Part shown: positions 4,457 to 46,347 of the stretch, piece by piece
Layout of the letters: every line of letters starts with the position of its first letter
Numbering within the stretch: position 1 is the stretch's first letter
IMG/VR virus record: IMGVR_UViG_3300025276_000021
Strand: one strand, 5' to 3'
Origin: a virus
DNA: 64,000 nt
Notes under the pieces: generated by a model
What the model saw: the letters and a program-made list of their open reading frames with translations, nothing else
The model's database searches: none
Told to the model about the DNA's origin: nothing
Program-made: the position numbers and the translations under genes

Positions 4457-5611
4457 TTAGAATGAGAATGAGATTCCTGCATCAATCCATTGACGTTTTG
4501 CATCGTCATTCATAACTCCAATTTTCGCTGTTGCGCCACCAAGATCATACTCAACACCAAAGCCTGTGTATGATGTATCAGCGGAACCAACTGTAGTAAC
4601 GTCTTTCTGAAAAACTGTTCCTGTCAAGGCAGAGATATTATATGAAATGCTAATTGCAGTTTCTTCAACATCTGCGGCAGTACCGTTATCATCTTCTGAC
4701 TGTACAACTTTAGCTGTAATATCAGCCATAGTCATTCCAGCACCATATGAGGTTTGAGTTGCTGTTCCGATTTGAGAATGTCCTACGCCAACATTAACAG
4801 CAACGCCGCTAATATCTTGAGAATAAGAAAGACCTACAGCATTATTGCTTCCTGATTGAATTGTAGTATCCATCGACAATGCTGCAGTAATACCCATTGT
4901 ACTCAATTCCCAGCCTAGATTATGTGCGCTAGATTGATATGACAATTCGTTATTATTGCCTAAACCCGCAATACCAACACCAGCAACATCACCTACAGTA
5001 ATCTCATCTGCTCCGTCTAGATCGCCCATTGAGATTTTGCCGAATGTGCCGCTGATATATTGAGAACCCGCAGTGCCTGCATTACCGGCAACAGCGTTAT
5101 CAGCACGAATAGTTGCGCCAAAAGAAAGACCGTTATCAAGTGTGCCCTCACCTGTGAAAGCAATACGAACACGATTTACTGCAGATGTTGTATCCTTAAC
5201 AGCGTCAGTGCCTACAGTACCATCTGTTGCATCAATTGCTGCATCCCAAGCTGTAATTGCAGCATTGTATGATGTTACCTCTGCGGCAGTAGGGCCAGAA
5301 ATAAGTCCAAACGCAGTGACAGCCGCAGCCCGATCTGCTCGGAGTTCTGTTAGCAGAGTGACGGCAGTTGAGTCGCTAGTTGCTGCCGCAGCAGATAGAT
5401 CAGATGCCCAAGTACCTACAGCGGTATCAAGTGCTGTAATCTGTGCTGCAGTATACGCACCTTCTGTTGCTGCAACAGCGGCAGTACCTTCAACACTCTG
5501 TACTCCCATACGGGCAGAACCTGTGATACCCAATTTAAAATCTGCTGCGGAAACGGTAGTTGTGAGTGCTGTTGTTGCAAGCATAGCAACGGCAAGAGTA
5601 GTAAACTTCAT
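4457..5611 (-). CDS. alphaproteobacterial (Rhodobacter-type) porin with large insertion
   Basis: signal peptide; RVRIAFTGEGTLDNGLSFGATIRAD and ISGTFGKISMGDLDGA motifs; C-terminal beta-signal AGISFSF. Confidence 0.85.
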   Translation of the reverse strand: MKFTTLAVAMLATTALTTTVSAADFKLGITGSARMGVQSVEGTAAVAATEGAYTAAQITALDTAVGTWASDLSAAAATSDSTAVTLLTELRADRAAAVTAFGLISGPTAAEVTSYNAAITAWDAAIDATDGTVGTDAVKDTTSAVNRVRIAFTGEGTLDNGLSFGATIRADNAVAGNAGTAGSQYISGTFGKISMGDLDGADEITVGDVAGVGIAGLGNNNELSYQSSAHNLGWELSTMGITAALSMDTTIQSGSNNAVGLSYSQDISGVAVNVGVGHSQIGTATQTSYGAGMTMADITAKVVQSEDDNGTAADVEETAISISYNISALTGTVFQKDVTTVGSADTSYTGFGVEYDLGGATAKIGVMNDDAKRQWIDAGISFSF

Positions 5612-5641
5612 TAAAATATTCCTTTGTGATTAAATAAAATA

Positions 5642-6060
5642 CGACTTTTCTGTTGCTAGGTAAGTCGCCAACCCCCTGTGTTATGCAGCTAGTGCGTAAC
5701 CAGATGGTGCAAAATTATTGTTTGCATTTAGTAGTTTCTTCGCGTTAACCCAGCTTAGATCGGGATAGTCTCCATGTTTCCGTCCACATCTGTCGATCCT
5801 ATTTCATCCCCATCATAAAGTCACTGAACCTAGAGGTTTACAGATATATTTAACTGTATCCCAATGTCCGTCTGCTGGAACTTCTGTATACTCTACAAGC
5901 ATAGTTTCGCATTTCAATTTGGTATCAAATTGCTGTATGTCTTGCTCTAAACAAGTAGAGCCAGAGCAAACCGTCAGTAGTATATGCCAGATAATTTCCA
6001 TTTCAAATGTCCTTATGGTGGAGATGCGCGGTACTGCCCCGCGGTCCAGTATATGTCAAG
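5642..6060 (-). ncRNA. ssrA: two-piece, circularly permuted tmRNA (acceptor piece ~6060-6016; coding piece 5811-~5642)
   Basis: acceptor stem GGGGATG (5811-5805) pairs with CATCTCC-A-CCA (ending 6016), with G3:U70; T-arm CGCGG-GGCAGTA-CCGCG; tag frame ANNNFAPSGYALAA* at 5725-5681; GCAACAGAA motif downstream; outer ends approximate. Confidence 0.95.
5813..6001 (-). CDS. 62-aa four-Cys protein inside the tmRNA intervening segment (YebW/DUF1482-like pattern)
   Basis: TAAGGA SD immediately after the tmRNA CCA; ATG 6001; TGA 1 nt before tmRNA G1; hydrophobic N-terminus, CxxxxC...C...C. Confidence 0.7.
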   Translation of the reverse strand: MEIIWHILLTVCSGSTCLEQDIQQFDTKLKCETMLVEYTEVPADGHWDTVKYICKPLGSVTL

Positions 6061-6116
6061 TTAATATCATCAACTACAGTAGTATATAGTCTCCTATTTG
6101 TCATTTAATTGACAAC

Positions 6117-6145
6117 ATTATAGCATTATTTCGTTAGTGTGTCAA
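6117..6145 (-). promoter_or_regulatory. consensus sigma70-type promoter for tmRNA/porin
   Basis: TTGACA-17 nt-TATAAT with extended TG. Confidence 0.85.
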
Positions 6146-45751: not shown

Positions 45752-46347
45752 CATTCTAGAAAATCTTTTAGATCGGAGTCTACATTGACACTTCTTTTCT
45801 TACGCATTTGTTTCTCCTTCTTACCAAATTCTTTCAATTCTGTATCATATTCTTTAACTTTGTCGATACGGTCTTTCAATACGTCAATAAAGTGAGTCGC
45901 AACACTAGCTGAAGCCTCGCCTTGTTCTGTTACCAGAAAAGCTTCAATGCCGGATTGCGACAGATATTTTTCTTTTATCTCTTGCTGTTTCTTTTCTTTT
46001 GCGATACGTCGAAGAAATGCATACCAAATGATCTGTGTAAAATATGCAAATGCGTTCGGCTTACCCGTGCGTGTTACAGCATTGATATTATAATTCTCAA
46101 CAGCTTTTAAGCAATTTTCGACTGCGTCCATTACCATTTCTTCACGGTACGTATATCTAATAAAATTAGACTTGTGAGATAAATTTTCTGCAATATTAAG
46201 GAAACATCTCGCTAAGTAGTTCGGAACAATAGGTAAATCTTGTTCCGCATCTCTAGCGGAATTGACTGTTTTTACATACTCCACGATGTTTGCAGAAAAT
46301 TCTTGATTATTTACATAGTGTGCATTCTTTGTTTTTTTTCTAGTCAT
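45751..46347 (-). CDS. gp55: late-transcription sigma factor
   Basis: HYVNN, NFIRYTYREEM..DA.ENC, NAFAYFTQI...AFLRRI.KEK. Confidence 0.95.
   Translation of the reverse strand: MTRKKTKNAHYVNNQEFSANIVEYVKTVNSARDAEQDLPIVPNYLARCFLNIAENLSHKSNFIRYTYREEMVMDAVENCLKAVENYNINAVTRTGKPNAFAYFTQIIWYAFLRRIAKEKKQQEIKEKYLSQSGIEAFLVTEQGEASASVATHFIDVLKDRIDKVKEYDTELKEFGKKEKQMRKKRSVNVDSDLKDFLE

What the first reader, a model, noticed from the sequence alone, without database searches (positions are those of the whole stretch)
5642..6145. Permuted two-piece tmRNA whose intervening segment is a complete protein-coding gene
Seen: on the - strand the order is consensus promoter (6145-6117), acceptor piece ending CCA at 6016, a 204-nt spacer (6015-5812), then the coding piece starting GGGGATG at 5811. 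The spacer begins with TAAGGA directly after CCA, has ATG at 6001 and TGA ending 1 nt before G1, so the ORF fills it almost exactly. Known: alphaproteobacterial permuted tmRNAs normally have a short non-coding spacer excised by RNase P and 3' processing. Inference: maturation would release a mini-mRNA, or translation competes with processing, coupling a four-Cys peptide to tmRNA production.
Basis: partly seen in the sequence, partly recalled or inferred. Interest (0 to 1): 0.85.

Follow-up and report, generated by a model that had tools for sequence, protein, structure and literature searches.

The report
Protein gene nested inside phage tmRNA
A marine T4-like phage carries a working-looking two-piece tmRNA gene whose normally short, discarded spacer holds a conserved 62-residue protein gene, and many related phages use that spacer as a slot for other small genes.

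Summary
ARAGORN and two Rfam models find a permuted alpha-type tmRNA on the minus strand. A 204-nt spacer (IVS, 6015-5812) separates the encoded CCA from G1, and a 62-codon ORF (6001-5813) nearly fills it.

The ORF is a real gene. It is exactly 62 codons in 79 related viral loci, with dN/dS about 0.15-0.18, four invariant Cys and a confident AlphaFold model. No known fold or family matches it.

The same ORF-in-IVS layout occurs in 20 other IMG/VR loci, where the acceptor stem covaries, so the tmRNA stays under selection.

- The gene is not tied to the tmRNA. Elsewhere it lies just upstream of a compact tmRNA (as in cultured phage Melnitz), just downstream of one, between tRNA-Thr and tRNA-Leu, or among ordinary genes.
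- In a sample chosen without regard to the ORF, 41 of 92 unique phage IVSs are at least 100 nt. Most of these are filled by one small ORF, and the ORFs are unrelated to each other. Each sits in the loop of a covarying closing helix. In 72 alphaproteobacterial genomes the median IVS is 30.5 nt and carries no ORF.

No expression data bear on how translation and processing interact. I found no published description. Verdict: a new variant of a known kind.

The parts
6117..6145 (-). Sigma-70 consensus promoter, TTGACA-17 nt-TATAAT with an upstream TG. It drives the tmRNA precursor. It lies about 35 nt further from the acceptor piece than the TTGACA-N17-TATAAAT promoters of relatives.
   Evidence: 12 of 12 matches. 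Alignment A2 shows the relatives' promoters abutting the acceptor piece.
6016..6078 (-). Acceptor piece of the two-piece tmRNA: 5' helices, T-arm 6043-6027, acceptor 3' strand 6026-6020, discriminator A 6019, and encoded CCA 6018-6016.
   Evidence: The acceptor stem covaries across relatives.
5812..6015 (-). Intervening segment (IVS), 204 nt. It is removed from mature two-piece tmRNA and here carries a gene.
   Evidence: The IVS alone folds no better than shuffles, z -0.97.
6010..6015 (-). TAAGGA, a Shine-Dalgarno motif 8 nt upstream of the ATG. It is also the 5' arm of the IVS closing helix (with C6017 and A6016 of the CCA).
5813..6001 (-). 62-aa protein gene (P0001). It has four invariant Cys and a predicted strand-strand-helix-strand fold. 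The stop TGA is at 5815-5813.
5812..5820 (-). CTTTATGAT: the last codons, the stop and base -1. This is the 3' arm of the IVS closing helix and the conserved UGAU leader before the RNase P site. It is invariant in all ORF-in-IVS relatives but not in other contexts of the same gene.
5638..5811 (-). Coding piece of the tmRNA. G1 is at 5811 (GGGGATG, with a G3:U70 pair). The 3' end is approximate and is followed by a U-rich tract.
   Evidence: An RNA-library contig at 5643-5797 lies wholly inside it.
5681..5725 (-). Tag reading frame ANNNFAPSGYALAA plus stop, with resume codon GCA.

Best explanation
This is a functional alpha-type permuted (two-piece) tmRNA gene of an uncultured marine T4-like phage. 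A true protein-coding gene has been lodged in the apical loop of its intervening-segment hairpin.

One strong early-type promoter makes a single precursor: leader, acceptor piece, IVS with the 62-aa gene, then coding piece. A covarying closing helix brings the two halves of the tRNA-like domain together across the 204-nt insert. That helix pairs CCA-UAAGG(AC) with (GU)CUUUAUG and stacks on the acceptor stem.

Inferred steps:
- RNase P cuts between U-1 and G1, one base after the ORF's UGA.
- 3' maturation trims back to the CCA, so the cell gets an ordinary two-piece tmRNA.
- The 62-aa protein is translated from this same transcript. The most likely route is co-transcriptional: the Shine-Dalgarno motif emerges about 190 nt before its pairing partner, giving ribosomes a window to load. 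Less efficient translation from the precursor or the excised IVS may follow.
- A ribosome terminating at the UGA would cover G1 and beyond. Folding and processing of that molecule would then have to wait for termination.

The gene is cargo riding on the tmRNA promoter, not a dedicated tmRNA partner. The IVS loop of tmRNA genes in this phage group is a general slot for small genes.

The function of the protein itself is unknown. It is a compact Cys-containing alpha/beta domain typical of small phage accessory proteins.
For: The tmRNA looks intact and under selection.
- ARAGORN plus two covariance models well above their cut-offs.
- 21 loci carry the ORF in the IVS. Acceptor-stem pairs change together: GGGGAUG/CAUCUCC, GGGGGCG/CGCCUCC, GGGGUCG/CGACUCC and GGGGCCG/CGGCUCC.
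- the tags differ between lineages but keep the (A/Y)ALAA-type end.

The ORF is a gene.
- 62 codons in 79 loci.
- median dN/dS is 0.175 within the in-IVS group and 0.149 overall. In the in-IVS group, 44 third positions, 25 first positions and 7 second positions are variable (of 62 each).
- 18 columns are invariant, including three of the four Cys; the fourth (C54) is conserved in at least 90% of rows.
- AlphaFold mean pLDDT is 90.
- 78 proteins (one representative per 50%-identity cluster) match the family profile at E up to 0.001; most are about 62 aa, a few are long proteins matching in repeated stretches.
- homologues occur as ordinary genes, including Melnitz gene 85.

The closing helix is real.
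- it forms in the minimum-free-energy fold of the precursor.
- its 3' arm CTTTATGAT is invariant only when the gene lies in the IVS.
- the compact 28-nt IVS of L009 has the same two arms around a 6-nt loop.
- across 87 unique phage IVSs the helix is 95% paired in register, against 26-53% when slid. There are many compensatory pair types, and pairing is equal in short and long IVSs.
- the Shine-Dalgarno motif has an unpaired probability of 0.01 or less in the precursor.

The slot is general.
- 109 phage tmRNAs have IVSs of 9-266 nt.
- 39 of 41 unique IVSs of at least 100 nt are at least 75% open in one sense frame. Shuffles give a mean of 8.6 and a maximum of 15.
- four other cargo families show pN/pS of 0.13-0.29.
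- one of them matches DUF2061 over the whole profile (E 1.8e-4).
- 12 such loci pass the Rfam cut-offs.

Bacteria lack the feature: median IVS is 30.5 nt, 1 of 72 is at least 100 nt, and Pelagibacterales have 11-16 nt. Mann-Whitney p is 8e-13.
Against: - There is no direct evidence of transcription across the IVS, of processing, or of translation. RNA-library contigs covered only the coding piece and read-through into the porin gene. Contigs cannot show RNA ends.
- The Shine-Dalgarno motif is predicted to be paired in the folded precursor and largely paired in the free IVS. Efficient translation is therefore not assured, and the co-transcriptional window is an inference.
- If 3' maturation of the acceptor piece is exonucleolytic, it would degrade the ORF RNA from its 3' end after RNase P cleavage. 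That argues against a stable released mini-mRNA.
- The gene tree has only 186 columns. It cannot say whether the ORF entered the IVS once or several times.
Confidence: 0.6

Rival explanations
1. Dedicated coupling. The 62-aa protein works with the tmRNA or with tRNA-like RNAs, for example as a binding, protecting or regulating factor. It is placed in the IVS so that protein and RNA are made in fixed proportion.
For: The gene keeps close company with tRNA-like genes. It lies in the IVS in 21 loci. It lies directly upstream of a tmRNA in 12 aligned loci (plus 2 loci cut at the contig end) and in Melnitz. It lies directly downstream in L035 and L037. It abuts tRNA genes in 13 loci.
Against: About a quarter of the loci have the gene with no tRNA-like neighbour, for example next to PAAR or baseplate genes. 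Other phages fill the same IVS slot with unrelated genes. Melnitz has this gene outside its tmRNA and a different ORF inside the IVS. The fold gives no hint of RNA binding: the best Z is 5.5, below the noise level the tool states. The tRNA region of T4-like phages is a known plastic region (own knowledge), so adjacency may be positional rather than functional.
Confidence: 0.15
2. Processing-activated mini-mRNA. The ORF is silent in the precursor because its Shine-Dalgarno motif is locked in the closing helix. It is translated only after RNase P and 3' processing excise the IVS as a discrete small mRNA, in the manner of tRNA punctuation in mitochondria.
For: The ORF's ends coincide with the two processing sites. 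The Shine-Dalgarno motif is 99-100% paired in the precursor, and U, A, A open to about 0.8 unpaired after RNase P cleavage alone. The same tight abutment is seen between tRNA-Thr and tRNA-Leu in other phages.
Against: In the fully excised IVS the helix is predicted to re-form, with unpaired probability 0.07-0.32. An excised RNA would carry only 14 nt of leader and 1 nt after the stop, and would be exposed to 3' exonucleases. Several other cargo ORFs end 13 nt past G1, so excision would remove their stop codon. Those ORFs must be read from the precursor.
Confidence: 0.15
3. Disrupted pseudogene. Insertion of the ORF killed the tmRNA, and only the protein gene matters.
For: An IVS about seven times the bacterial median could hinder folding of the tRNA-like domain.
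Against: Compensatory changes keep the acceptor stem paired in four variants across lineages that all carry the ORF. Tags stay open and keep their degron-like ends. The covariance models score full length. The closing helix is conserved. An RNA contig matches the coding piece.
Confidence: 0.04
4. The ORF is not translated and is conserved for an RNA-level role in the spacer.
For: The first and last few nucleotides of the IVS are constrained as RNA, as the arms of the closing helix.
Against: Substitutions are concentrated at third codon positions, with dN/dS about 0.17. The IVS folds no better than shuffles, z -0.97. The protein model is confident. The same protein is encoded in ordinary operon positions.
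Confidence: 0.03

Closest known systems
Alphaproteobacterial two-piece (permuted) tmRNA, first described in Caulobacter by Keiler, Shapiro and Williams 2000 (cited in PMC9004378; Rfam RF01849 and RF04321)
   Same: Gene order is acceptor piece, IVS, coding piece. It has the GGCAGUA T-loop, G3:U70, an encoded CCA and a tag ending ALAA. Scores are full length on both models.
   Different: Bacterial IVSs are short and non-coding. The median is 30.5 nt in 72 genomes, and 11-16 nt in Pelagibacterales. Here the IVS is 204 nt and is a protein gene.
tmRNA of Methylophilales phage Melnitz and of pelagimyophages (Buchholz et al. 2022, PMC9004378)
   Same: Same phage group (T4-like, Kyanoviridae) and the same alpha-type permuted ssrA behind an early-type promoter. 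Melnitz also encodes a 61%-identical homologue of the 62-aa protein.
   Different: In Melnitz the homologue (gene 85) lies 3 nt upstream of ssrA, not inside it. The paper does not mention any ORF in the IVS. The Melnitz IVS (142 nt) does hold a different, unannotated ORF, conserved in 18 viral loci plus Melnitz.
Intron-form tmRNA genes whose group I intron carries a homing endonuclease gene, and permuted tmRNAs with a tRNA-Ala gene or a repeat element in the IVS (PMC11915505)
   Same: A second gene is nested in a part of the tmRNA gene that is removed from the mature RNA.
   Different: There the cargo is the intron's own mobility gene, another RNA gene or a repeat. Here the cargo is a set of diverse small non-endonuclease proteins, and removal is by tRNA-type end processing rather than splicing. 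That survey held only 79 phage sequences and reports no IVS ORF.
tRNA-flanked messages: the mitochondrial tRNA punctuation model, E. coli tRNA-tufB co-transcripts, and small ORFs in the T4 tRNA cluster (own knowledge, not checked in papers here)
   Same: A coding sequence directly abutted by tRNA-like structures and sharing their promoter. Relatives of this phage have the same 62-aa gene squeezed between tRNA-Thr and tRNA-Leu.
   Different: Here both flanking structures are halves of one RNA that must pair with each other across the ORF. Translation and RNA folding therefore act on the same helix.

Membership tests
Permuted (two-piece) alpha-type tmRNA | Gene order is 3' (acceptor) half, intervening segment, 5' (coding) half | tested here: met
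   ARAGORN flags it as permuted. Both Rfam models align full length with the IVS as an insertion.
Permuted (two-piece) alpha-type tmRNA | tRNA-like domain: 7-bp acceptor stem with G3:U70, T-arm, discriminator and CCA | tested here: met
   Read from the sequence. Seven of seven acceptor pairs are found in all 21 ORF-bearing loci, with four covarying variants.
Permuted (two-piece) alpha-type tmRNA | Tag reading frame with resume codon GCA and a hydrophobic ALAA-type end | tested here: met
   ANNNFAPSGYALAA* at 5725-5681.
Permuted (two-piece) alpha-type tmRNA | Score above the curated family cut-off | tested here: met
   RF04321 scores 102.2 against 47, and RF01849 scores 88.1 against 50.
Permuted (two-piece) alpha-type tmRNA | Precursor processed into two base-paired RNAs, alanylated, and active with SmpB | not testable with these tools
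   There is only a weak hint: a 155-nt RNA-library contig lies wholly inside the coding piece (5643-5797).
Protein-coding gene (the 62-aa ORF) | Reading frame kept, purifying selection, ribosome-binding site | tested here: met
   62 codons in 79 loci. dN/dS is 0.15-0.18 with an excess of third-position changes. TAAGGA lies 8 nt before the ATG.
Protein-coding gene (the 62-aa ORF) | Product detected (ribosome footprints or peptides) | not testable with these tools
   No raw-read RNA run held the stretch.
Any named protein family for the 62-aa product | Significant match to Pfam, PHROGs or a solved or predicted fold | tested here: inconclusive
   No Pfam or PHROG hit. Foldseek against PDB and BFVD gives nothing at E of 0.001 or below. 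The best VIA Z is 5.5, below the stated noise level. The protein atlas returns only unnamed viral clusters.
tRNA-punctuated message | Coding sequence directly bounded by tRNA-type processing sites | tested here: met
   The CCA ends 14 nt before the ATG, and the stop ends 1 nt before G1.
tRNA-punctuated message | Message released by those cleavages and then translated | not testable with these tools
   No end-resolved RNA data.

The most novel reading that the evidence does not exclude
The excised spacer of phage-borne permuted tmRNA genes is a general expression slot for small protein genes. Diverse cargo ORFs sit in the loop of a conserved closing helix and are transcribed from the strong tmRNA promoter. 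Their translation is gated by the folding and RNase P processing of the tmRNA precursor itself. This would be a phage counterpart of tRNA punctuation, in which one transcript yields both a ribosome-rescue RNA and a protein. For cargo whose stop codon lies beyond G1, processing would turn the message into a non-stop mRNA, the natural substrate of the tmRNA made from the same transcript.
Probability: 0.45. Interest if true: 0.85.

Novelty: new variant of a known kind. Interest (0 to 1): 0.72.

Why it matters
tmRNA genes are treated as pure RNA genes, and their spacer as disposable. Here a stable-RNA gene and protein genes share one transcript and even the same nucleotides: the Shine-Dalgarno motif and the stop codon are the arms of an RNA helix needed to assemble the tRNA-like domain.

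If the cargo is expressed, this is a compact way for phages to place small accessory genes under a very strong early promoter. It would also be a natural case in which translation, RNA folding and RNase P processing act on the same molecule.

On the practical side, annotation pipelines either miss these genes or call them with false N-terminal extensions that run across the acceptor piece (P0003). tmRNA finders in turn miss many long-IVS genes: ARAGORN found none in several loci that pass the Rfam cut-offs.

Melnitz and its OM43 host are in culture and carry a cargo ORF in the IVS, so the idea can be tested directly.

Tried and rejected
- Expression evidence. Laying four of them showed contigs over the coding piece and across its 3' end into the porin gene. 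Nothing near-identical (95% or more alike) lay over the ORF or the acceptor piece. Contigs cannot show ends or absence, so this counts neither for nor against.
- Function of the 62-aa protein. All of the following gave nothing usable: Pfam and PHROGs, a profile search of 1.84 billion representatives, the protein atlas, Foldseek against PDB and BFVD, and VIA-align wide. The best hits were a 70-aa chain of a type I-C CRISPR-Cas3 entry (8g9s_A) and topoisomerase subdomains, at Z of about 5. These are within noise.
- Signal peptide or membrane anchor in the N-terminal hydrophobic stretch. Rejected on the model, which makes residues 5-13 and 16-25 a beta-hairpin.
- Nucleotide search of the locus against GenBank phages. 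No match.
- The nearest held virus record, G001. It has no tmRNA.
- Direction and number of moves of the ORF into the IVS. The tree has 186 columns and needs 3 changes for the in-IVS state, but one origin is not excluded. I left this open.
- An internal promoter-like site at 6006-5979. It lies across the ATG and could not serve the ORF.
- Short IVS ORFs of 26-35 codons in other loci. They show no coding signature, with pN/pS about 0.9 or only non-synonymous changes, and are not counted as genes.
- The founding papers on two-piece tmRNA (PMC16621, PMC516066). They are not held, so statements about them rest on citations in other papers and on my own knowledge.
Full report
**1. What is in the window**

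On the minus strand, ARAGORN finds one permuted tmRNA at 5590-6112 with tag ANNNFAPSGYALAA*. Two Rfam models match full length: tmRNA_permuted at 102.2 bits (cut-off 47) and alpha_tmRNA at 88.1 bits (cut-off 50). Both align the region between the CCA and G1 as one long insertion.

Reading the sequence gives the following layout:
- T-arm at 6043-6027.
- Acceptor 3' strand CATCTCC at 6026-6020.
- Discriminator A at 6019, and CCA at 6018-6016.
- A 204-nt intervening segment (IVS) at 6015-5812.
- G1 at 5811 (GGGGATG, with the G3:U70 pair).

A perfect TTGACA-17-TATAAT promoter lies at 6145-6117.

The IVS starts with TAAGGA. It has its ATG at 6001 and its TGA at 5815-5813, one base before G1, giving a 62-aa ORF.

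The window belongs to an uncultured marine T4-like phage. Supporting points:
- It has baseplate-type Laminin_G proteins.
- Its DNA polymerase region is about 69% identical to that of Methylophilales phage Melnitz and phage C48C1.
- The window's own assembly is not held.

**2. The ORF is a real gene**

A peptide-pattern scan of IMG/VR found 93 relatives, of which 80 loci were kept.
- In 79 loci, counting the window, the frame is exactly 62 codons.
- Median dN/dS is 0.175 among the 13 unique sequences that lie inside a tmRNA, and 0.149 over all 52 unique sequences. Inside the tmRNA group, 44 third positions, 25 first positions and 7 second positions are variable, out of 62 each.
- Eighteen columns are invariant in a 36-sequence alignment, including three of the four Cys; the fourth (C54) is conserved in at least 90% of rows.
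- AlphaFold gives a confident strand-strand-helix-strand domain, with mean pLDDT 90.
- A profile search finds 78 proteins (one representative per 50%-identity cluster) at E up to 0.001. Most are about 62 aa, with a few long proteins matching in repeated stretches; where sources name family members, the name is 'hypothetical'. The atlas clusters checked are viral.

No Pfam, PHROG or structural match rises above noise. The function of the protein remains unknown.

**3. The tmRNA stays functional-looking with the gene inside**

Twenty further loci have the same layout, with an IVS of 202-205 nt. Across them the acceptor stem changes on both strands together, in four variants: GGGGAUG/CAUCUCC, GGGGGCG/CGCCUCC, GGGGUCG/CGACUCC and GGGGCCG/CGGCUCC. 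The tags diverge but stay open. The loci that ARAGORN missed pass the Rfam cut-offs.

A pseudogene would not keep compensatory pairs in this way.

**4. The gene is not bound to the tmRNA**

In relatives, the same gene lies in five kinds of place:
- Directly upstream of a compact tmRNA. This is the case in L009, L040-45 and L051-56, and in the cultured phage Melnitz. There it is gene 85, annotated as hypothetical, ending 3 nt before ssrA.
- About 400 nt upstream of a tmRNA (L023-28, L032, L039).
- Directly downstream of a tmRNA (L035, L037).
- Abutting tRNA genes. In about ten loci it is squeezed between tRNA-Thr and tRNA-Leu, with gaps of 13-20 nt and 3-5 nt. In three more loci only the downstream tRNA-Leu abuts it.
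- Among ordinary genes with no tRNA-like neighbour, for example beside PAAR or baseplate genes.

Contexts cluster on a gene tree. With only 186 columns, though, the tree cannot tell one entry into the IVS from several.

**5. How the gene sits in the IVS**

In the minimum-free-energy fold of the 475-nt precursor, both the T-arm and the acceptor stem form. The acceptor stem is extended by a second helix, in which C75-A76-U-A-A-G-G pairs with C-U-U-U-A-U-G at positions -9 to -3. The Shine-Dalgarno motif is thus one arm of this helix, and the last codons plus the stop are the other arm.

Three results show that this helix is an RNA element in its own right:
- The 3' arm CTTTATGAT is invariant in all 11 distinct in-IVS junctions. 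This includes three synonymous or stop-choice positions. The same gene in other contexts ends with varied codons and stops.
- The compact 28-nt IVS of L009 is simply these two arms around a 6-nt loop.
- Over 87 unique phage IVSs, positions t1-t10 after the CCA pair with positions -5 to -14 before G1. Pairing is 95% in register, against 26-53% when the partner is slid. There are several compensatory pair types per position, and pairing is equal in short and long IVSs. UGAU precedes G1 in 77 of the 87.

The ORF therefore occupies the apical loop of a conserved IVS hairpin. The IVS on its own is not unusually structured, with z of -0.97.

Thermodynamically, the Shine-Dalgarno motif is paired in the precursor, with unpaired probability of 0.01 or less. 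It is partly freed after RNase P cleavage and mostly paired again in the free IVS.

**6. The window is one case of a wider phenomenon**

I scanned IMG/VR with a pattern for the T-loop and acceptor end, which does not depend on the ORF. In 109 of them both tmRNA halves were found, giving 92 unique IVSs of 9-266 nt.
- 41 unique IVSs are at least 100 nt long.
- 39 of those 41 are at least 75% open in one sense frame. Shuffles give a mean of 8.6 and a maximum of 15.
- Most have a Shine-Dalgarno-like motif before the start codon.

The ORFs are unrelated to one another. Besides the 62-aa family they include:
- A Melnitz-type peptide with the core ...VVITRDYF.ER.RKADAKIPKYLSG.
- A 45-47-aa WISW...PFQWG family.
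- A 41-aa family.
- A 68-aa membrane protein that matches DUF2061 over its whole profile, at E 1.8e-4 and just under the cut-off.
- A 77-aa membrane protein, and single cases of 59-75 aa.

Where two or more diverged copies exist, the signature is that of coding sequence:

| Cargo ORF | pN/pS |
|---|---|
| 77 aa | 0.13 |
| 68 aa | 0.22 |
| 41 aa | 0.29 |
| Melnitz-type core (11 unique sequences) | 0.27 |

For the Melnitz-type core, 21 of 35 third positions vary, against 8-9 at the first and second positions. All 18 loci of that family lie in a tmRNA IVS. Melnitz itself has it, unannotated, in a 142-nt IVS. Twelve long-IVS loci pass both Rfam cut-offs.

Short frames of 26-35 codons show no coding signature and are not counted.

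Bacteria are different. In 72 alphaproteobacterial genomes with the same motif:
- The median IVS is 30.5 nt.
- Only one IVS reaches 100 nt.
- None of the five IVSs over 60 nt shows a convincing gene: their frames are stop-interrupted, lack a start codon, or hold only a very short frame.
- Pelagibacterales have IVSs of 11-16 nt.

The difference in IVS length between phages and bacteria has a Mann-Whitney p of 8e-13.

**7. Most likely mechanism**

Shown:
- One promoter, an intact tmRNA and a selected ORF in the IVS loop.
- A conserved closing helix that includes the Shine-Dalgarno motif and the stop codon.

Inferred:
- The precursor is the message.
- Ribosomes can load as soon as the Shine-Dalgarno motif emerges, about 190 nt before its pairing partner is made.
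- A ribosome terminating at the UGA covers G1 and the 5' strand of the acceptor stem. The tRNA-like domain can fold and be cut by RNase P only after termination.
- Once the helix closes, further initiation is disfavoured and the molecule matures into two-piece tmRNA.

A stable excised mini-mRNA is possible but less likely. Two points argue against it: the helix is predicted to re-form, and the RNA's 3' end would be exposed. In addition, several other cargo ORFs end 13 nt beyond G1, so processing would remove their stop codon.

A dedicated functional link between this protein and the tmRNA is not excluded. The many contexts of the gene and the variety of cargo argue against it.

**8. Comparison with what is known**

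Two-piece alpha-type tmRNA is well known. Its presence in Melnitz and in pelagimyophages is published (PMC9004378), but that paper does not mention ORFs in the IVS.

The 2025 tmRNA database paper (PMC11915505) describes homing endonuclease genes in intron-form tmRNA genes. For permuted genes it singles out only a tRNA-Ala gene and a repeat element in an IVS. It contains 79 phage sequences.

Full-text searches for an ORF in the IVS of a permuted tmRNA found nothing. The two hits that looked closest concern the tag ORF in Sinorhizobium and precursor processing in Orientia.

The finding is therefore a new variant of a known kind, and I could not find it described.

**9. Limits**

- All expression statements are inferences. 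The only RNA data were contigs, which cover the coding piece and read-through into the porin gene.
- Identification of G1 in the survey used a motif rule. It was checked by Rfam on 12 loci only.

Noticed in passing
L081:3286-3427 (Melnitz MZ577097, about 46077-46218): The cultured phage Melnitz has a 142-nt tmRNA IVS with an unannotated ORF behind GGAG-N7-ATG. Its 35-aa core is conserved in 18 viral loci, all inside tmRNA IVSs, with pN/pS 0.27. Its frame runs past G1 into the coding piece.
   Followed up: partly
L057:2910-3272; also L058, L059, L061, L064, L073-L075: In other marine phages the same 62-aa gene is wedged between tRNA-Thr and tRNA-Leu. It starts 13-20 nt after the tRNA's CCA, with a TAAGGAA- or AGGAA-type ribosome-binding site, and its stop lies 3-5 nt before the next tRNA. 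This is a tRNA-punctuated layout.
   Followed up: partly
L108, L158, L084, L119, L142 and others: Several IVS cargo ORFs read through the conserved UUAUGAU leader and stop 13 nt inside the coding piece, at the UAG of GAAAUAGGAU. RNase P cleavage at G1 would leave them without a stop codon, making them non-stop messages.
   Followed up: no
window 5560-5757: RNA-library contigs from two studies (X16, X17) run from the tag region across the tmRNA 3' end into the start of the porin gene. No terminator-like site was found between the two. This is consistent with read-through, or with DNA present in the libraries.
   Followed up: no
window 4457-5611 (-): A phage-encoded Gram-negative porin (Porin_4, E 5.8e-15) with a signal peptide starts about 27 nt after the tmRNA.
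   Followed up: no
window 6079-6145 versus A2 columns 1-60: In relatives a TTGACA-N17-TATAAAT promoter abuts the acceptor piece. In the window that site is degenerate (CTATATACTA), and a perfect consensus promoter lies about 35 nt further upstream.
   Followed up: no
L340-L401: The last 18 residues of the L137-type IVS ORF (about 54 nt) match some 60 viral loci at 89-94% identity. None of these loci had a tmRNA by my motif rule. What this short conserved element is remains unexplained.
   Followed up: no
P0003 and five cluster mates of 85 aa: Public gene calls extend the 62-aa protein by 23 residues at the N-terminus. The extension is a translation of the tmRNA acceptor piece, so it is an annotation artefact.
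   Followed up: partly
L006, L009, L010, L012, L013, L015, L016, L019, L035: ARAGORN reported no tmRNA in these loci, although Rfam scores them at 78-121 bits. Long-IVS permuted tmRNAs are easily missed by ARAGORN alone.
   Followed up: yes
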